From Escherichia phage SECphi4, in sequence record MT331608: a stretch of DNA of 44,569 nucleotides. One strand, given 5' to 3'. Shown here piece after piece: positions 967-21,971 of this stretch (position 1 is its first letter; the number at the start of each line of letters is the position of its first letter). The notes under the pieces were generated by a model that worked only from the letters and a program-made list of their open reading frames with translations, did not search any database and was not told where the DNA came from. Both the position numbers and the translations under genes were made by a program.

Positions 967-1184
967 TTTAATTCCGCCATTAAATTTTCACGTACAATAC
1001 GGGACGAGAATGCGTCGCACACAAGATGGCAATGCGCCGTCATGACAAGCCAGCCAGTTAGGTCAAGGCCTAGCAATTGATGCGGTTGGCTTGCGCGCCT
1101 TACTTTATTTCCAGGGAAAACCTGGTAGCGTTTAATTATTTCATCCACGACGCGCGGACTGCGATCGACGACTAAGATATTCAT
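963..1184 (-). CDS. Hypothetical protein (73 aa)
   Basis: ATG at 1182..1184 preceded by GAAGGAG SD; overlaps the 3' end of the Dam-like gene. Confidence 0.45.
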   Translation of the reverse strand: MNILVVDRSPRVVDEIIKRYQVFPGNKVRRASQPHQLLGLDLTGWLVMTAHCHLVCDAFSSRIVRENLMAELK

Positions 1185-1650
1185 ATAATTCTCCTTCACT
1201 CATTATCTCGATTTGTGCGCTGCCGTTTGGCGGCACTTCTTCAAAGATTATCAATTGCTGACACTTGTTGTTACTCGGCCCGACCTTACCGGTGACGGCG
1301 TGTATAAACCGGATCCGCCAGTCCAGCAAAATGATCAGGTTGGCGGTTTGCCTTGCCAGTTTGGCCCACTTCGTGGTCGTATCTTGGTTGAGCAACATTA
1401 CCGTCTTACGCCCCTGCGATGCGCAAGTCACCCACGGCAGCGGGTCGGAATACGGCGGATTGCACCACTTCCACCCGTTTAACTCTGACCAGTCAGCATC
1501 AAGCGCGCTGTGCTCTTTCGTGAAATAGCGCGGTAGCAAATGGTTGTGGTCGCTCGCCGCCATGTCGTAGCGGAATTTAAACGCCTTGCGCAGCGGTTTA
1601 AATAAAGCTGGCGGCGTGCGCCAGCTATCTTTTTGCTCACTCTTCTGCAT
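1141..1650 (-). CDS. DNA N6-adenine methyltransferase (phage Dam family)
   Basis: WRTPPALF N-terminal motif and catalytic NPPY tetrapeptide in a 169-aa ORF. Confidence 0.85.
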   Translation of the reverse strand: MQKSEQKDSWRTPPALFKPLRKAFKFRYDMAASDHNHLLPRYFTKEHSALDADWSELNGWKWCNPPYSDPLPWVTCASQGRKTVMLLNQDTTTKWAKLARQTANLIILLDWRIRFIHAVTGKVGPSNNKCQQLIIFEEVPPNGSAQIEIMSEGELYEYLSRRSQSARRG

Positions 1651-2095
1651 GGTCGGTATCTATCGCATACAGGGCAATTTTCTTACCACTGTTTAGAACG
1701 CGTTGCAGGCGCTTTGCCCCCTCGACGCTAAGCGGTCGGCAATCGGAGTAGTAGCTGCCGTTTGCGCGCCACGCCATAAGCACCAGGTCTTTTCTGTCGA
1801 TCTTAGACTGGCGACCTTTGGGGCGCACGTACTCCTCGGCCCGTTTGCAATGCTCGCGCAGACCTTCGGCAGTGATGCGGTTTAGTGCAACGCTGGTTGT
1901 GTATCCGGTGCGCTGCATAATCCCCATCAATTTGAAAAGCAGTTCGAAACGCTCCTCTAGCTCCTTGCGGACCTTCTCTTCACCTTCATAGCTTGCAAGA
2001 TAGGTGTTAGCCAGCGCGGTAGCGCCTTCTGCTTTCTCGCGTGCTTCAAGACACTGCGCTACCCAGTACGCTTTTTCTTCTTGTAAAATTTTCAT
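1637..2095 (-). CDS. Hypothetical protein with C-terminal resolvase-like HTH
   Basis: 152-aa ORF with strong AAGGAG SD; C-terminal segment resembles Hin/resolvase HTH_7 pattern. Confidence 0.45.
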   Translation of the reverse strand: MKILQEEKAYWVAQCLEAREKAEGATALANTYLASYEGEEKVRKELEERFELLFKLMGIMQRTGYTTSVALNRITAEGLREHCKRAEEYVRPKGRQSKIDRKDLVLMAWRANGSYYSDCRPLSVEGAKRLQRVLNSGKKIALYAIDTDHAEE

Positions 2096-2337
2096 TAGTT
2101 AATCTCCTTCCTGCGAATTTCTTTGCGAGGTATAAATTTGCCGTCCATTTCAACCCAGCAAGTGCCATAGCGCCACTGGGTGTTACGACCTGTTAGCTCT
2201 GCGTAGACAATCCGGCATTCATATTTATCGAGGTTATACGTGCAGGAAATCGGCAGCAGGAGACAAAAGAATAAGAACAGCACCAAACACACCCAAAAAC
2301 GTAAATCACCGTCGTCGTCAAAAAAGAATCGTTTCAT
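2095..2337 (-). CDS. Small membrane protein
   Basis: 80-aa ORF with one hydrophobic helix (CLVLFLFFCLLLPI); GAGGA SD. Confidence 0.5.
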   Translation of the reverse strand: MKRFFFDDDGDLRFWVCLVLFLFFCLLLPISCTYNLDKYECRIVYAELTGRNTQWRYGTCWVEMDGKFIPRKEIRRKEIN

Positions 2338-2383
2338 TGTTAAATCCTCATATTAAAAAAGGGCGTTCCCTTCGGACACCCTC

Positions 2384-2412
2384 AATATAATGCAACCAAT
2401 CTAACTATGCAA
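2384..2412 (-). promoter_or_regulatory. Sigma70-like promoter (TTGCAT-N17-TATATT) with two direct ATTGGTTGCA copies
   Basis: Motif copies at 2391..2400 and 2408..2417 on the complementary strand, upstream of the gene starting at 2337. Confidence 0.45.
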
Positions 2413-2417
2413 CCAAT

Positions 2418-2741
2418 TTACGCATAAAAATTCGGGTCGCGCGCGACGTCTACCAGGTAAAGGTTGCTCATGCGGTTGCCGTAGTGCCCTGGTGTGCGCT
2501 GGCGGCACACAACGGCGAAGCCTGGGGGGATTGTATTGCCAGTCTCAATAATCCACGCCACGCGCGCCCCCGATAGAGTTTTGCCGTTGCATTCGATACG
2601 TGTGCCACCATCGGCAGTATTGATGTTGCCAATTTTGCAGCCGGTGGACTTCAGACGAATGACGCCGGTTTTGCTGTCGTAGGAAAAAAGCTGATTGGTC
2701 ATTGCCACTGAAAAGTCGATGGCGTCGAATGCAGTATTCAT
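2418..2741 (-). CDS. HNH-like protein with apparently degenerate catalytic residues
   Basis: 107-aa ORF resembling phage HNH_3 layout but with conserved His positions replaced; GAGGAAAA SD. Confidence 0.35.
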   Translation of the reverse strand: MNTAFDAIDFSVAMTNQLFSYDSKTGVIRLKSTGCKIGNINTADGGTRIECNGKTLSGARVAWIIETGNTIPPGFAVVCRQRTPGHYGNRMSNLYLVDVARDPNFYA

Positions 2742-3433
2742 TTTAAATTTTCCTCGTTAACCGCTATCGCGAAGCCGCACGGGGTGAGCGACCTGATTAA
2801 TTTGGTGTGGGCAGATTTGCCTCCGAGGCGACTATACTGCTTCGAGTACCCTTTTTCAACGAAAACAGGTTTCTTCTCTGGCATACGGAAGCCGTTGCCG
2901 GTCCATAAGCAGGTCAGCTTCGGATATGAATCGCGGGCGTTGATGTATTCCGGGAATAGCGGGTGTACGTCATCCTCCGGCAGATATCCGCCATACTCCC
3001 ACGGGTCAAACGAGTGGTCCGGCTTACGCCATTGAGTGGAGAGCACGCTGCGCGGATTCTCAATCATATATGGCACTTCAAAGAAATCACCCAGGTAAGC
3101 GGCGATCTTAGCGGTGCGCACCGCCTTAAGCTGGAAGGCAGGGTCGCGGGCGCGTTTGCGCGGGAAAGCGGGCGCGCCACTCACCGCCAGATCCGTACAC
3201 GGCGGGAATGCGTATATGATATCCGGCGTGCCGAAATCACCATTCATCGCGCGGTCCACGAAGTCCAGACCGATAAACTCATTACGATATCGAATGCCAC
3301 GACCATAGATCCGGTAGTCCAGGTACGACCCGTGATCGGCTCCGGAGTAGTTGAAGCAATAACACTTATGCCCCATCTCGGCAGCACGTTCAATCATCAA
3401 GCCGCTGCCGTCAAATAATGACCAGATAATCAT
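2738..3433 (-). CDS. DNA cytosine-C5 methyltransferase-like protein
   Basis: FDGSG (motif I-like), FPPC (motif IV-like, catalytic Cys) and ENP (motif VI-like) in a 231-aa ORF. Confidence 0.65.
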   Translation of the reverse strand: MIIWSLFDGSGLMIERAAEMGHKCYCFNYSGADHGSYLDYRIYGRGIRYRNEFIGLDFVDRAMNGDFGTPDIIYAFPPCTDLAVSGAPAFPRKRARDPAFQLKAVRTAKIAAYLGDFFEVPYMIENPRSVLSTQWRKPDHSFDPWEYGGYLPEDDVHPLFPEYINARDSYPKLTCLWTGNGFRMPEKKPVFVEKGYSKQYSRLGGKSAHTKLIRSLTPCGFAIAVNEENLK

Positions 3434-4854
3434 TTGCGCGCCTTTTTAGCTTTCATGTATTCCATTAAATCGTCCTGAATGTCTCGCTTACTGTCGCGAC
3501 GCTCCGCGACCAGTTCGTCCAGTGTGCCGCGCGCCTGGATAATGTAGACGAATACAGGACGAGGGTGTCCGGCTTGCATCTGGCGAACTGGCCCGATACG
3601 CTCCACGATCTGCGCAAAGTGCTCATAGTTCCAGGTGTCTGAGAAGATAGCAAGGTGGTGTCCGCCATCCTGCAAGTTAAGGCCGTGACCCGCCGATGCC
3701 GGGTGTGCGAACATGATGGGGATCTCGCCCCTGTTCCACGCTTCCATATCCTTATTGCCTTGCTTACCCTTACCCATCGCTACGCCGTGAGGGAATTTCT
3801 TCTTAAGACGTGCCAGATCATGCTTGTACTGGTATGCGACGAGCAACGGTGCTCCGTTCAACTCCTCCACGATACTTTCCAGCGCGTCCAGCTTAGCGTC
3901 GTGAATTTTAACCCATTCGTCGGTGCGCTCGCCGTCTTCGTCCACCTTATACACGGCCCCCGAAGCAAGCTGAAGGCACTTAATAGTCTTCGAAGCAGCG
4001 TTCGCCGCCTCCACCGTTCCGCTCTCCAGTTCGGCAAATAGCTCCGCTTCGAACTGGTCATAAATCTTGCGGGCTTTCTTCGGCAGGTCCACAACAACCG
4101 GCGTATAGATCGGCTTGTCACACCCGAAGTATTCAGCCGCGTCAACTGTTAGCGACACGTCGGACAGGCGTTGTTGGATTTCTTTCTCGGAGTTCTTAAG
4201 CGGGGCGTGCTGCATAGTGAAGCTGCCAGGCTTAACAGGCTTGCTAATAAACCAGCGATCAGTGAATGCCTTATAACTACTGCCGAGGCGTTCGCCCCCG
4301 TCGACAAACCACGTCTGGCCCCATAGGTCTTTCAGCCCGTTTGGTGCGGGGGTTCCTGTCAGGTTAATCCAGCGCTTGACGTGCTTATGTGCGATCGCAG
4401 CCAGCGCACGGGCGCGCTTACTCCCCTGCTTGCTTCGATAGCCTTTCAGCTTAGTCGATTCATCGGCAACCACGACCGTAAAGGGCCACTCGTCGCCGCA
4501 ATACTCGACGAGCCACTCAACCACATCATAGTTAACACAAACCACGTTAGCGTCGCTCTCAAGCGCAGCGATGCGGTCCTTCTCCGACCCGGTGCCGTCT
4601 ACTACCAGCAGGGCTGGGAAGCGCCATTTTTCCTGTTCCGGGGGCCATGTGCCAGATGCAACGCGCAGCGGGGCCAGCACCAGTACGCGGTCCTCCTGAT
4701 TGGACAGGATGCCGGTCTGGAACATTTTATTCAGCGCCCACATGGTCGCGCCAGTTTTACCCGACCCCATTGTCGCCCATATATTGCATCGCTTATGCTT
4801 GAGGATGAACGCGGTTATCAACTTCTGATATTCGCGACGTCGGAAACGTGCCAT
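3430..4854 (-). CDS. SNF2/DEAD-like helicase
   Basis: Walker A GSGKTG and DExx box VVADE; start set at the internal ATG (MARFRRREYQ) to avoid overlap with the upstream gene. Confidence 0.8.
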   Translation of the reverse strand: MARFRRREYQKLITAFILKHKRCNIWATMGSGKTGATMWALNKMFQTGILSNQEDRVLVLAPLRVASGTWPPEQEKWRFPALLVVDGTGSEKDRIAALESDANVVCVNYDVVEWLVEYCGDEWPFTVVVADESTKLKGYRSKQGSKRARALAAIAHKHVKRWINLTGTPAPNGLKDLWGQTWFVDGGERLGSSYKAFTDRWFISKPVKPGSFTMQHAPLKNSEKEIQQRLSDVSLTVDAAEYFGCDKPIYTPVVVDLPKKARKIYDQFEAELFAELESGTVEAANAASKTIKCLQLASGAVYKVDEDGERTDEWVKIHDAKLDALESIVEELNGAPLLVAYQYKHDLARLKKKFPHGVAMGKGKQGNKDMEAWNRGEIPIMFAHPASAGHGLNLQDGGHHLAIFSDTWNYEHFAQIVERIGPVRQMQAGHPRPVFVYIIQARGTLDELVAERRDSKRDIQDDLMEYMKAKKARK

Positions 4855-4858
4855 ATCT

Positions 4859-5077
4859 TTATTCCGCCTTTTTCCAGACTTCGGTTTCACTGTTCCAGTT
4901 CCTTTTTGTGGCGTCGTAGTTGGTGCTGTGCCCGATGTGTACACCCGTCGCCCGGAAGCTCTTAAATTTTTGCCAGCACACCGTCAACGGCAGCGGGTAA
5001 TTCATGCCAGCGATAAACCATACGCGATCGCCTGGTTTGCATTCGCCCAGTGTGGTGAGTCGGTAGTGTTCTTTCAT
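4859..5077 (-). CDS. Hypothetical protein
   Basis: ORF with GGGAGAC SD 8 nt before the ATG at 5075..5077. Confidence 0.45.
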   Translation of the reverse strand: MKEHYRLTTLGECKPGDRVWFIAGMNYPLPLTVCWQKFKSFRATGVHIGHSTNYDATKRNWNSETEVWKKAE

Positions 5078-5120: not shown

Positions 5121-5294
5121 TTATTTTTGCGCTGCGCGGTAGCGGCGCTGCCGTTCACGCTCTTTCTTATTGCGACACGATTTGCACTCGGCACGATACC
5201 CATCGGGGCTGCGCGCAGTTTTGCCGGTGTATTTGTGGAACTGGGATAGCGGCTTGACGCAACCGCAATTACTGCAACGTTTTTCTTCAATCAT
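5121..5294 (-). CDS. Small zinc-ribbon protein
   Basis: 57-aa ORF with CxxC...CxxC cysteine pairs; GAGGA SD. Confidence 0.45.
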   Translation of the reverse strand: MIEEKRCSNCGCVKPLSQFHKYTGKTARSPDGYRAECKSCRNKKERERQRRYRAAQK

Positions 5295-5334
5295 TTCTAA
5301 AATCCTCGGTATAGCTAACCTGCTCACTATACTG

Positions 5335-5613
5335 TTAAGCGACCAATTCAGCAACCAATAAATCACAGTCAGCTATGTTGTCAATGACGCGAACGTCCGC
5401 ACCGCGGCGGGCCATCCGCTCATGTTCTCGCACCTGGTGCGGCTTCGGTTTGCCTCCGGGGCGCTTCACTTCGACGAAAACTATTCTGCCGTTGATGATG
5501 ATAATCAGATCGGGCGCACCTGCGCGCCCCTCCCAGGCCACTTTGCGGCAGAATCCGCCGACGGCTTTCACCAGTTTCATAAGGTGACTTTGGATCTTGC
5601 CTTCTGGTGTCAT
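5335..5613 (-). CDS. VRR-NUC domain nuclease
   Basis: PDLIIIINGRIVFVEVK PD-(D/E)XK core typical of VRR-NUC; translationally coupled (ATGA overlap) to the upstream gene. Confidence 0.8.
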   Translation of the reverse strand: MTPEGKIQSHLMKLVKAVGGFCRKVAWEGRAGAPDLIIIINGRIVFVEVKRPGGKPKPHQVREHERMARRGADVRVIDNIADCDLLVAELVA

Positions 5614-19917: not shown

Positions 19918-19950
19918 GCCTCCCAGCCTGCCGATTTGGTGGGCTTTTTT
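19918..19950 (+). terminator. Probable rho-independent terminator
   Basis: Imperfect GC-rich hairpin followed by T6 just after the stop at 19904. Confidence 0.4.
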
Positions 19951-20034
19951 GTGCCTGTTATAATCCCCCTTAGATGGCAGGGCCGTCTCCTATGTTGCCG
20001 ATGGTCGGCGCATATGCACAAAAGGGCTTATATC

Positions 20035-20586
20035 ATGGCAGAAATTAAAGTTAAGGGCCGTCGCGCCAAACTGGACGGACGAGTAGCAGTTACCCCTCGC
20101 CGTAAACCAGGCGAGCAAACCGAACATACCAATCTCGGACCTGAGATCGAGTACGGCAAGCGCCGTAAAGGCGGCAAATGTGGGCGCCCTACTGACTACC
20201 GATCTGTTTACTGCGACCAGCTTCGTCGCTATTTTGCCGACGCCGACGCCTGGCAGGTCAATTACTCCGATAAAGGCGCTGCGCAGGTAATCCCTCGCAA
20301 CAAAATGCCAACCTTCGGCAGATTTGCCGCGGAAATCGGTGTGGGCGTCGCTTGCCTGTATCGCTGGGCGCGCGCACATGAGGAGTTCGCCGAGGCGATG
20401 GCGGACGCTATGGAATTGCAGAAAACTTTCCTGATGGAGGCTGGCGGCGTAACCATCGCGGCGGGCTTCGCTACGTTCCTGCTTAAAGCCAACCACGGCG
20501 TACGCGACGATATCCCACTGGATGACGACGAAGATGATAACGGCGACGTCGTTGTCGAACCTACCGGCAAAGGCCAGGGCGAATAA
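20035..20586 (+). CDS. Terminase small subunit
   Basis: 183 aa immediately upstream of TerL; HTH-like segment and acidic C-terminus; start set at the internal ATG (MAEIKVKG). Confidence 0.7.
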   Translation: MAEIKVKGRRAKLDGRVAVTPRRKPGEQTEHTNLGPEIEYGKRRKGGKCGRPTDYRSVYCDQLRRYFADADAWQVNYSDKGAAQVIPRNKMPTFGRFAAEIGVGVACLYRWARAHEEFAEAMADAMELQKTFLMEAGGVTIAAGFATFLLKANHGVRDDIPLDDDEDDNGDVVVEPTGKGQGE

Positions 20587-21971
20587 TGCGTAACTATGCG
20601 GCAGAACACCGCGCACTGGAACGCGCGATCGCAAAGCGCAACCGACCGCCACGCCCAACACGCGTTGCGCAGGCCGTCCGCCTTTACCAGCCTGATTGCT
20701 TGCCGCACCAGGTTGAACTACTGCGCGACACAAAGACTAAAATCCTCGGCCTGTGTTCCGGCTTCGGCGGCGGCAAGTCATGGGTTGCGGCGAGAAAGGT
20801 CATACAGCTTTTAACCCTGAACCCTGGTTATGACGGCATCGTGACCGAACCGACTATTCCACTCCTGGTTAAAATAATGTATCCGGAACTGGAGAAGGCA
20901 TTCGACGAGGCTGGATTCAGGTGGAAGTTCAATAAGCAGGACAAGATCTACAACGTGCTGGTGAAAGGCAAATGGACCCGCGTTATATGTGAATCAATGG
21001 AGAATTATACCCGCCTGATCGGGGTAAACGCCGCGTGGATTGTTGCCGATGAATTCGACACCACTAAGCAAGACGTCGCGCTGGCGGCATATCACAAATT
21101 GCTCGGTCGTCTGCGTGCGGGCTTTGTCCGCCAGTTCGTCATCGTGTCCACCCCGGAAGGCTACCGGGCGATGTACCAGATTTTCGAAGTGGAGAAGGAT
21201 AGCCAGAAACGTTTGATCCGGGCGAAGACTACCGATAACCACCACCTACCGGCAGACTTCATCGACACGCTGCGCCGCCAGTACCCGGCGAACCTGATTG
21301 ACGCGTACTTGAACGGCCTGTTTGTAAACCTTACGTCTGGCGCGGTTTACAAGATGTTCAATCGTGAGGAGAACGCCAGCACCGAAGAAGTGCAGCCGGA
21401 AGACACGCTGATTATCGGTATGGACTTTAACGTCACGAAGATGGCGGCGGTCGTGTACGTCAGACGGCAGCGCATCGCCGAAAACAAGGAGTTCCGCGAC
21501 GAGATCCACGCAGTGGATGAGTTTGTGGACCTGTTTGATACCCCGGCTATGATTGAGGCGATCGAGGAGCGATACCCAGATCATTGCGCTGCCGGTCGTG
21601 TTGTCGTGTACCCGGATAGCAGCGGCAAGTCTCGCAAGACTGTCAACGCATCATCGTCCGATATAGCGCAACTGGAAGACGCGGGCTTCGAGGTGGAGTA
21701 TGACAGTGTTAACCCACCTGTGAAAGACCGATTGATCGCGATGAATACGATGATGTGCAACTCGAAGGGCGTGCGCCAGTATTTTGTCAACCTGGATAAA
21801 TGCCCTACACTAGCGAAATGTCTGGAACAGCAGGTTTACGACCTGAAGAAAGGCGAGCCGGATAAAACCGCCGGGGCGGACCACATGAACGATGCCGCGG
21901 GCTATCCAATTGCGCACCTGTTCCCAGTGATTCGCCCAATCGCCGTTGTTCCAACTGTAGACTTCTACTAA
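20586..21971 (+). CDS. Terminase large subunit
   Basis: 461 aa with Walker A-like GFGGGKS; position upstream of the portal gene. Confidence 0.85.
   Translation: MRNYAAEHRALERAIAKRNRPPRPTRVAQAVRLYQPDCLPHQVELLRDTKTKILGLCSGFGGGKSWVAARKVIQLLTLNPGYDGIVTEPTIPLLVKIMYPELEKAFDEAGFRWKFNKQDKIYNVLVKGKWTRVICESMENYTRLIGVNAAWIVADEFDTTKQDVALAAYHKLLGRLRAGFVRQFVIVSTPEGYRAMYQIFEVEKDSQKRLIRAKTTDNHHLPADFIDTLRRQYPANLIDAYLNGLFVNLTSGAVYKMFNREENASTEEVQPEDTLIIGMDFNVTKMAAVVYVRRQRIAENKEFRDEIHAVDEFVDLFDTPAMIEAIEERYPDHCAAGRVVVYPDSSGKSRKTVNASSSDIAQLEDAGFEVEYDSVNPPVKDRLIAMNTMMCNSKGVRQYFVNLDKCPTLAKCLEQQVYDLKKGEPDKTAGADHMNDAAGYPIAHLFPVIRPIAVVPTVDFY

What the first reader, a model, noticed from the sequence alone, without database searches (positions are those of the whole stretch)
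2418..2741. HNH-like ORF with apparently substituted catalytic histidines
The 107-aa protein follows the spacing of phage HNH endonucleases (paired Gly and Trp positions, terminal NL-containing helix), but the positions usually occupied by catalytic His and Asn appear replaced (ARVAW, CRQRTPGHYGN). It sits directly upstream of the C5-like methyltransferase gene and may be a non-catalytic DNA-binding derivative.
Basis: inference. Interest (0 to 1): 0.3.

Follow-up and report, generated by a model that had tools for sequence, protein, structure and literature searches.

The report
Catalytically dead HNH-like phage gene
A small gene that every phage of this group carries and that databases call an "HNH endonuclease" is a shortened relative of homing nucleases that has lost its key cutting residues yet is strongly conserved, so the label is probably wrong and its real job, most likely DNA binding, is unknown.

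Summary
The window is a Dhillonvirus (HK578/SSL-2009a-like coliphage) genome. The ORF is real: minus strand 2741->2418, 107 aa, with ARVAW and CRQRTPGHYGN as described. It is a true homolog of HNH_3 / I-HmuI-type homing endonucleases (PHROG 99 E 1.4e-15; hhalign 99.5 %, E 5e-23).

Two of the three I-HmuI catalytic residues are gone. Asp74 and His75 align with Val78 and Cys79, and no member of the 12-cluster subfamily has Asp or His at those positions. The "HR" histidine is Ala59. The protein ends 9 residues after strand beta2, where the metal-binding helix and the C-terminal DNA-binding domain of canonical relatives would follow. Pfam HNH_3 finds canonical relatives but not this subfamily.

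It is not a decaying remnant. It occurs in all 157 Dhillonvirus-type records with dN/dS of 0.04-0.14, and also in Eiauvirus. It always follows the SNF2 helicase gene; the C5-methyltransferase neighbour is not constant. Related phage groups carry intact, sporadic HNH_3+AP2 genes at the same helicase borders.

Best reading: a domesticated, inactive homing-endonuclease module with a non-nucleolytic, probably DNA-binding, role. That role is inferred, not shown. Interest is modest: it corrects an annotation and describes a new variant of a known kind.

The parts
2418..2741 (-). 107-aa ORF: degenerate, truncated HNH_3 / I-HmuI-like module (NUMOD4-like beta domain plus beta-hairpin of the beta-beta-alpha-Me motif)
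   Evidence: purifying selection
2565..2567 (-). Codon for Ala59, at the position of the invariant His of the canonical 'HR' motif (I-HmuI His56)
   Evidence: A/P/L in all subfamily members
2505..2510 (-). Codons for Val78-Cys79, at the positions of the metal-ligand Asp and general-base His (I-HmuI Asp74-His75)
   Evidence: subfamily has V/T/C/R and C/L/P here; catalytic roles of D74/H75/N96 as cited in PMC12724721
2484..2486 (-). Codon for His86, invariant in the subfamily, inside a 2-residue insertion in the hairpin loop; absent from canonical HNH_3 domains; role unknown
   Evidence: lowest-confidence part of the AF2 model
2460..2465 (-). Codons for Asn93-Leu94, the retained 'NL' motif (I-HmuI Asn87-Leu88, structural Asn)
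   Evidence: invariant in every sequence aligned
2430..2438 (-). Codons for Asp102-Pro103-Asn104, the possible but ambiguous counterpart of the metal-binding Asn (I-HmuI Asn96); the protein ends 3 residues later and no helix is predicted
2751..2755 (-). Shine-Dalgarno-like GAGGA 9 nt before the ATG, lying inside the end of the methyltransferase gene
   Evidence: read directly from the sequence
2738..2741 (-). ATGA overlap of the methyltransferase stop and the ORF start (translational coupling likely)
   Evidence: same 4-nt overlap in L003
2358..2373 (-). Terminator-like hairpin plus T-run about 45 nt after the ORF stop, the likely end of the helicase-MTase-ORF transcription unit
   Evidence: a pattern match only; a terminator is annotated at the same place in phage WF5505
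2738..3433 (-). 231-aa Dcm-like C5 methyltransferase gene (PHROG 757), immediately upstream in transcription
3430..4854 (-). SNF2-family DNA helicase gene, the constant upstream neighbour of the ORF family. The probable start is the ATG at 4854 (474 aa as in relatives); the longest ORF begins with GTG at 4944

Best explanation
The ORF encodes a domesticated, catalytically inactivated and C-terminally truncated descendant of an HNH_3 / I-HmuI-type free-standing homing endonuclease. It keeps the N-terminal beta-rich (NUMOD4-like) domain and the beta-hairpin of the His-Me finger. It has lost the metal-ligand Asp, the general-base His, the 'HR' His, the alpha-helix of the beta-beta-alpha-Me motif and the C-terminal AP2/HTH DNA-binding domain. 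It is expressed as the last gene of the early helicase -> C5-methyltransferase -> ORF unit, translationally coupled to the methyltransferase and followed by a terminator-like hairpin. It has become a fixed core gene of the replication module of Dhillonvirus and a few related siphophages.

Shown: homology, loss of the catalytic residues throughout the subfamily, universal presence, strong purifying selection, and constant position after the SNF2 helicase gene.

Inferred: that it does not cleave DNA, and that it acts by binding DNA (or a DNA-bound partner such as the helicase) through the retained groove-binding beta domain.
For: Homology:
- PHROG 99 scores E 1.4e-15.
- hhalign of the subfamily against canonical domains gives 99.5 %, E 5e-23.
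- The canonical profile hits I-HmuI (1U3E) at E 3.6e-10.
- It finds only this ORF in the window, E 8e-16.
- The AF2 model (pLDDT 81.7) matches predicted phage HNH/homing endonucleases in BFVD, TM about 0.5, E down to 2e-5.

Loss of catalysis:
- I-HmuI D74/H75 align with V78/C79, and the HR-His aligns with A59.
- All 12 subfamily clusters lack Asp and His at these positions.
- D74, H75 and N96 are the catalytic residues cited for I-HmuI (PMC12724721).
- Pfam HNH_3 misses the ORF and its subfamily but hits canonical relatives at E 1e-15 to 1e-21.
- No helix is predicted after beta2, and the protein ends at residue 107.

The gene is functional:
- dN/dS is 0.04-0.14 within Dhillonvirus.
- It is present in 157 Dhillonvirus-type records, that is all records matching the region except 3 distant Klebsiella phages, plus 4 Eiauvirus records.

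Context:
- It lies directly after the SNF2 helicase, or one gene away, in five lineages.

Origin:
- Intact HNH_3+AP2 genes sit at the borders of the orthologous helicase gene in Hrm2 and SaI_NFG_5577, and only sporadically in those groups.

Non-catalytic use of the module is recurrent:
- Many distant relatives are tandem proteins whose first module also lacks DH.
- The most distant subfamily member, P0009, has a weak C-terminal HTH signal.
Against: - No biochemical data exist, and no paper found addresses this gene.
- Foldseek against solved structures gave no significant match, not even I-HmuI, so the fold-level link rests on predicted viral structures and on sequence profiles.
- The protein is only mildly basic (pI 8.9) and lacks the C-terminal DNA-binding domain of its relatives, so DNA binding is not assured.
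- His86, Arg90, Asn93 and Asp102/Asn104 are conserved, so a rearranged active site cannot be formally excluded.
- The alignment after residue 98 is uncertain.
Confidence: 0.72

Rival explanations
1. It is still an active nuclease (nickase) that uses a rearranged active site, for example the subfamily-invariant His86 as general base and Asn93 plus Asp102/Asn104 as metal ligands. The database label 'HNH endonuclease' would then be functionally right.
For: His86, Arg90, Asn93 and Leu94 are invariant across members only 36-41 % identical. A possible Asn/Asp counterpart of I-HmuI Asn96 exists. Strong purifying selection is compatible with an enzyme.
Against: The general-base position is C/L/P and the Asp position is V/T/C/R, so neither is conserved even within the subfamily. 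The helix that carries the second metal ligand is not predicted, and only 9 residues follow beta2. The loop containing His86 is the least confident part of the model (mean pLDDT 60). To my knowledge, no His-Me finger nuclease lacking the beta1 histidine is known to be active. Asn89 and residues 102-104 vary in the distant members.
Confidence: 0.1
2. It works mainly through protein-protein contacts rather than DNA binding. It could be an accessory or regulatory subunit of the adjacent SNF2 helicase or of the C5 methyltransferase, or a decoy/inhibitor of a host HNH-type defence nuclease.
For: It is constantly adjacent to the SNF2 helicase gene in five lineages. It is translationally coupled to the methyltransferase in Dhillonvirus and L003. 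The canonical C-terminal DNA-binding domain is lost. It sits in an early-gene module that also holds methyltransferases and a Lar-like protein.
Against: The methyltransferase is absent from L004 and L005 and lies on the other side in eiAU. The protein has no match to defence-system models. There are no interaction data, and gene adjacency in a compact phage module is weak evidence.
Confidence: 0.15
3. It is a functionless remnant: a decaying homing-endonuclease pseudogene that merely still has an open frame.
For: Catalytic residues are lost and the protein is truncated relative to canonical relatives. The SSL-2009a copy is frameshifted.
Against: dN/dS is 0.04-0.14 at dS up to about 0.8-2. The frame is intact in essentially all 157 Dhillonvirus-type records and in lineages down to 36-40 % identity. 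There are 18 invariant residues across the subfamily. A Shine-Dalgarno sequence and coupled start are conserved.
Confidence: 0.03

Closest known systems
I-HmuI (Bacillus phage SPO1 intron-encoded HNH nicking homing endonuclease, PDB 1U3E) and the Pfam HNH_3 (PF13392) family of free-standing phage HNH/AP2 endonucleases
   Same: Homologous over I-HmuI residues 16-101. Shared features are the NUMOD4-like 'Y-D-x-x-T-G' beta domain, the 'xR-x-A-W' strand/helix, the beta1-loop-beta2 hairpin with the 'N-R...N-L' motif, and similar spacing throughout. Predicted fold matches to phage HNH endonucleases.
   Different: Asp74, His75 and the 'HR' His are replaced by Val, Cys and Ala. There is a 2-residue insertion carrying an invariant His86. 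There is no alpha-helix of the beta-beta-alpha-Me motif and no C-terminal NUMOD/HTH or AP2 domain. It scores below Pfam HNH_3 detection. It is a universal (core) rather than sporadic gene.
Intact HNH_3+AP2 endonuclease genes flanking the orthologous SNF2 helicase gene in related siphophages (Escherichia phage vB_Eco_Hrm2; Salmonella phage SaI_NFG_5577)
   Same: Same protein family (BLASTP E 5e-6 to Hrm2; hhalign 92 % to SaI_NFG_5577) and the same genomic niche at the border of a helicase gene about 65 % identical.
   Different: Those proteins are 161-163 aa with complete HR...DHINH...DNR...NLR...EN motifs and an AP2-like tail. They occur only in occasional members of their phage groups, as expected for mobile homing genes.
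Degenerate N-terminal modules of tandem HNH_3 proteins (e.g. P0013, P0014, P0015, P0017, P0018, P0019, P0022 found here)
   Same: The same module lacking the Asp-His pair (F/Y/Q/V instead of His) but keeping 'NL' and the beta domain. This suggests a recurrent non-catalytic use of the fold.
   Different: Those modules are fused to an active HNH_3 module in the same polypeptide. The window protein stands alone, the window holds no active HNH_3 partner, and it has its own subfamily signature (PGHY insertion).
Terminase-associated HNH proteins of HK97-like phages (gp74 type; from general knowledge)
   Same: Small phage-encoded HNH-family proteins that are core rather than mobile genes.
   Different: Those keep the catalytic motif, belong to another HNH subfamily and lie next to the terminase genes. 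This ORF is about 18 kb from the terminase genes (19936-21971) and lacks the motif.

Membership tests
HNH_3 / I-HmuI-like His-Me finger endonucleases (PF13392) | Significant sequence/profile similarity to family members over the nuclease region | tested here: met
   PHROG 99 E 1.4e-15. hhalign 99.5 %, E 5e-23. The canonical profile hits this ORF at E 8e-16 and I-HmuI at E 3.6e-10.
HNH_3 / I-HmuI-like His-Me finger endonucleases (PF13392) | Score above the curated Pfam HNH_3 threshold | tested here: not met
   No Pfam or NCBIfam hit at E <= 1. None for subfamily members P0007-P0009 either. Controls P0011, P0013, P0015 and P0027 score 56-74 bits against a cut-off of 24.8.
HNH_3 / I-HmuI-like His-Me finger endonucleases (PF13392) | General-base histidine at the end of beta1 (I-HmuI His75) | tested here: not met
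   Cys79 in the window; C/L/P across the 12 subfamily clusters.
HNH_3 / I-HmuI-like His-Me finger endonucleases (PF13392) | Metal-ligand aspartate preceding the histidine (I-HmuI Asp74) | tested here: not met
   Val78 in the window; V/T/C/R across the subfamily.
HNH_3 / I-HmuI-like His-Me finger endonucleases (PF13392) | Metal-ligand asparagine on the alpha-helix (I-HmuI Asn96) | tested here: inconclusive
   MAFFT pairs it with Asn104 after a 2-residue gap; by fixed spacing it would be Asp102. Distant members have D/I/D here. No helix is predicted for residues 99-107.
HNH_3 / I-HmuI-like His-Me finger endonucleases (PF13392) | Structural asparagine of the 'NL' motif (I-HmuI Asn87) | tested here: met
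   Asn93-Leu94 are invariant in every aligned sequence.
HNH_3 / I-HmuI-like His-Me finger endonucleases (PF13392) | Metal-dependent DNA nicking or cleavage | not testable with these tools
   Requires purified protein and nuclease assays.
Free-standing (mobile) homing endonuclease genes | Sporadic presence/absence among closely related genomes | tested here: not met
   Present in 157 Dhillonvirus-type records, essentially every record that matches the region. Intact HNH_3 genes beside the orthologous helicase are sporadic in related groups.
Free-standing (mobile) homing endonuclease genes | C-terminal sequence-recognition domain (AP2, NUMOD/HTH) | tested here: not met
   The protein ends at residue 107. 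Canonical relatives carry AP2. Only the distant P0009 has a weak HTH signal (E 0.04, below threshold).
Terminase-associated packaging HNH proteins (HK97 gp74 type) | Gene adjacent to the terminase genes and an intact HNH motif | tested here: not met
   The ORF lies in the helicase/methyltransferase operon. The terminase genes are at about 19936-21971. The motif is lost.

The most novel reading that the evidence does not exclude
The protein is a pseudo-nuclease recruited as a dedicated DNA- or DNA-structure-recognition subunit for the neighbouring SNF2-family helicase (a fork- or branch-targeting factor). Alternatively it is a site-occupying 'anti-homing' or anti-defence factor that protects the helicase locus or the phage genome from active HNH nucleases. 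Either way this would be a new functional class derived from homing endonucleases, and His86 would mark a new functional site.
Probability: 0.12. Interest if true: 0.6.

Novelty: new variant of a known kind. Interest (0 to 1): 0.3.

Why it matters
More than a hundred public Dhillonvirus records label this gene 'putative HNH/homing endonuclease'. The sequence evidence says it almost certainly cannot cut DNA by the His-Me finger mechanism, so the label is misleading for anyone screening therapeutic phages or cataloguing mobile nucleases. It is also a clean example of a homing-endonuclease module being fixed and repurposed as a core gene, with the intact, mobile counterparts still visible at the same helicase borders in sister phage groups. 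The subfamily is narrow: 12 clusters among 5.8 billion proteins. BASEL phages Bas14-18 are tractable Dhillonvirus models, so its role could be tested directly. It does not open a major question, and the expected outcome is a small DNA-binding accessory protein.

Tried and rejected
- **Pfam and NCBIfam scans of the ORF:** no hit at E <= 1, so membership by curated models fails.
- **PDB sequence search with the subfamily profile:** nothing at E <= 10.
- **Foldseek of the AF2 model against PDB:** no significant hit, best E 0.96. The link to I-HmuI therefore rests on profiles routed through canonical relatives.
- **PADLOC defence models:** no hit.
- **Literature searches** (Dhillonvirus + HNH; HK578/SSL-2009a; inactive HNH in phages; BASEL; OLD and retron escape mutants in Dhillonvirus): none addresses this gene. 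HK578 OLD-escape mutations map to other genes. The Retron-Eco7 trigger in 'phage98' is not identified in the text I could read.
- **Obligate partner or specificity subunit of the C5 methyltransferase:** considered and set aside, because the methyltransferase is missing next to the ORF in L004 and L005 and lies on the other side in eiAU.
- **Decaying pseudogene:** rejected on dN/dS.
- **Cys79 as a replacement catalytic or zinc-binding residue:** rejected, because it is Leu or Pro in other members and no other Cys/His pattern is conserved.
- **An active HNH_3 partner elsewhere in the window:** searched for and none found.
- **Geometry of His86 relative to Asn93/Asp102:** I could not inspect the AF2 coordinates, so this is untested.

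Full report
**Where we are.** The window is a complete or near-complete Dhillonvirus genome (HK578 / SSL-2009a-like E. coli siphophage). The region 1100-5000 is 88-92 % identical over its full length to about 150 such records. The finding's coordinates delimit an ORF on the minus strand (ATG 2741-2739, stop 2420-2418) of 107 aa:

MNTAFDAIDFSVAMTNQLFSYDSKTGVIRLKSTGCKIGNINTADGGTRIECNGKTLSGARVAWIIETGNTIPPGFAVVCRQRTPGHYGNRMSNLYLVDVARDPNFYA.

Its ATG overlaps the TGA of the preceding 231-aa Dcm-like methyltransferase gene (3433->2738) in an ATGA. A GAGGA lies 9 nt upstream of the ATG. A terminator-like hairpin plus T-run lies about 45 nt downstream (2373..2358, minus strand). That hairpin is a pattern match only, but a terminator is annotated at the same place in phage WF5505. 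The gene order in transcription is SNF2 helicase -> C5 methyltransferase -> this ORF -> terminator.

**Is it HNH-like?** Yes.
- Curated models fail: Pfam and NCBIfam give no hit at E <= 1.
- PHROG 99 ('HNH endonuclease') matches at E 1.4e-15.
- An exhaustive HMMER search of 1.84 billion representatives with a profile of close orthologs found only 24 proteins. These were a few sequences like the query, followed by typical HNH_3-type phage endonucleases with the pattern Y-D-p-e-T-G ... G-Y ... a-H-R-l-a-W ... i-D-H-i-N ... D-N-R ... N-L-R ... e-N-x-x-N. Many of these carry an AP2 domain.
- Profile-profile comparison of the query subfamily (A3) with twelve canonical domains (A4) gives probability 99.5 %, E 5e-23 over 91 columns.
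- The canonical profile finds the solved nicking homing endonuclease I-HmuI (1U3E) at E 3.6e-10.
- In a six-frame translation of the whole window it finds only this ORF, at E 8e-16.
- An AlphaFold2 model from 12 subfamily sequences (mean pLDDT 81.7, pTM 0.72) found nothing significant in the PDB by Foldseek.
- Among predicted viral structures it matches its own orthologs and then a long list of phage HNH/homing endonucleases (E 2e-5 to 1e-3, TM about 0.5).

**Are the catalytic residues missing?** Yes for two of three, and the third is doubtful. For I-HmuI the catalytic residues cited in the literature are Asp74, His75 and Asn96 (PMC12724721). In a joint alignment:

| I-HmuI / canonical residue | Window residue | Note |
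|---|---|---|
| Asp74 | Val78 | metal ligand lost |
| His75 | Cys79 | general base lost |
| 'HR' His (invariant in canonical domains) | Ala59 | lost |
| Asn after 'DH' | Gln81 | replaced |
| Asn87-Leu88 | Asn93-Leu94 | structural 'NL' motif retained |
| Arg of 'DNR' | Arg90 | retained |
| Asn96 | Asn104, or Asp102 by fixed spacing | ambiguous |

- Across all 12 subfamily clusters the Asp position is V/T/C/R, the His position is C/L/P and the HR-His position is A/P/L. The Cys is therefore not a conserved substitute.
- By comparison with I-HmuI, the NL motif begins strand beta2 and the metal-binding Asn sits on the following helix.
- The AF2 model has beta1 at residues 75-79 and beta2 at 94-98, followed by only nine residues of coil to the C-terminus. 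The alpha-helix of the beta-beta-alpha-Me motif therefore seems to be missing, along with the AP2 or HTH domain that canonical relatives carry.
- The subfamily has its own signature: a two-residue insertion in the hairpin loop carrying an invariant His86 (P-G-H-Y), in the least confident part of the model. I could not inspect the coordinates, so whether His86 approaches the old active site is open.

**Is it a functional gene?** Yes.
- tblastn finds it in 161 phage records. These are 157 Dhillonvirus-type genomes, essentially every record that matches the region, and 4 Edwardsiella Eiauvirus genomes at 40 % identity.
- Pairwise Nei-Gojobori estimates among nine orthologs give dN/dS of 0.04-0.14 within Dhillonvirus, at dS of 0.2-2.
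- More divergent metagenomic members (55-61 % identity) keep the same length and 18 invariant residues.
- The only damaged copy seen is the frameshifted SSL-2009a entry. This could be a sequencing error.

**Context across lineages.** The constant neighbour is the SNF2-family helicase gene, not the methyltransferase.
- Dhillonvirus, L003 and L006: helicase - C5 MTase - ORF.
- L005: helicase - ORF, with no C5 MTase.
- L004: helicase - 60-aa gene - ORF, with no MTase nearby.
- eiAU: helicase - ORF - MTase - Dam.

In the Jerseyvirus/Kagunavirus-like phages the helicase is about 65 % identical. There, intact 161-163-aa HNH_3+AP2 genes with complete HR/DH/DNR/NLR/EN motifs sit immediately downstream (vB_Eco_Hrm2) or upstream (SaI_NFG_5577) of the helicase gene. 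They occur only in occasional genomes. They are detectably related to the ORF (BLASTP E 5e-6; hhalign 92 %). This pattern suggests that the helicase gene borders are a landing site for mobile HNH_3 homing endonuclease genes, and that the Dhillonvirus/Eiauvirus gene descends from one that became fixed, lost catalysis and was shortened. The eiAU-type protein even carries a weak remnant of an I-HmuI NUMOD-like segment at its N-terminus (E 3e-4, below threshold).

**How it probably works.** What is retained is the part of I-HmuI-type enzymes that forms the globular N-terminal domain lying in the DNA major groove. That description comes from the Skunavirus study of I-HmuI-like enzymes.
- Modules lacking Asp-His recur as the first unit of tandem HNH_3 proteins.
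- The most distant subfamily member has a weak C-terminal helix-turn-helix signal.

I therefore favour a non-catalytic DNA-binding (or DNA-plus-helicase-binding) accessory protein of the early replication/modification operon (confidence about 0.7 for 'inactive but functional'). The DNA-binding step is inference. The rivals are:
- a rearranged active site using His86 (about 0.1);
- a purely protein-binding adaptor or decoy (about 0.15);
- a functionless remnant (about 0.03, contradicted by selection).

No paper found addresses the gene, and defence-system models do not match it.

**Comparison and novelty.** It works from the scaffold of an HNH_3 / I-HmuI endonuclease and is homologous to that family. 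It nevertheless fails the family's defining catalytic features and the curated Pfam threshold, and it fails the sporadic-distribution criterion of mobile homing genes. It should therefore not be filed as an HNH endonuclease or a homing endonuclease. It is best described as a pseudo-nuclease derivative, a new variant of a known kind. The practical consequence is an annotation correction across more than 100 genomes and a tractable small question about what a fixed, dead homing-endonuclease module does beside an SNF2 helicase. Interest is modest (0.3).

Noticed in passing
proteins P0012-P0019, P0022-P0025, P0028; domain map: Many distant relatives are tandem HNH_3 proteins with two or three modules. 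The N-terminal module lacks the Asp-His pair (F/Y/Q/V instead of His) and the last module is intact. This suggests a widespread pseudo-dimer or DNA-binding use of dead HNH_3 modules.
   Followed up: partly
L011 4922-5407 and L012 3028-3519: Intact HNH_3+AP2 endonuclease genes abut the orthologous SNF2 helicase gene in Escherichia phage vB_Eco_Hrm2 (downstream) and Salmonella phage SaI_NFG_5577 (upstream), and only sporadically in those phage groups. The helicase gene borders look like a homing hot spot.
   Followed up: partly
window 2738-3433 (-): The 231-aa 'Dcm-like' methyltransferase shows FDGSG, PPC and ENP motifs by eye but gets no Pfam or NCBIfam hit, only PHROG 757. It is unusually short for a C5 methyltransferase, and how it recognises its target is unclear.
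   Followed up: no
Escherichia phage SSL-2009a, NC_012223.2 27125-27444: The ortholog in the genus' reference-era genome SSL-2009a is frameshifted after residue about 75 (protein P0005, tblastn in 2 pieces). This is either a sequencing error or a natural knockout worth checking.
   Followed up: no
records OQ221563.1, MG065648.1, GQ502199.1: Records named Acinetobacter phage NJ01, Campylobacter phage A144 and Sodalis phage SO-1 are 90-99 % identical to E. coli Dhillonvirus genes (the NJ01 helicase is 99.6 % identical to the window's). The host labels look doubtful.
   Followed up: no
window 1637-2095 (-): This 152-aa ORF matches PHROG 10530, labelled 'DNA ligase' (E 1e-92), but has no Pfam support, and the RefSeq note for phage Envy says 'Possible DNA ligase but no evidence'. 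The label is probably unreliable.
   Followed up: no
window 3430-4944 (-): The longest helicase ORF starts with GTG at 4944 (504 aa), but relatives annotate 474-475 aa. The likely true start is the ATG at 4854 (Met31 of the long ORF).
   Followed up: partly
L002 3860-4315 / protein P0008: The Eiauvirus homolog has an N-terminal extension of 45-75 aa with a weak match to the end of Pfam I-HmuI_NUMOD-like (E 3e-4, below threshold). It may be a relic of a larger ancestral endonuclease or of a misplaced start codon.
   Followed up: no
window 5121-5366 (-): This small Cys-rich ORF (CSNCG...CKSC) in the same early operon is annotated variously as 'Lar-like restriction alleviation protein' (Envy) or 'meiotic chromosome segregation protein' (JLBYU37) in relatives. 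The annotations are inconsistent.
   Followed up: no
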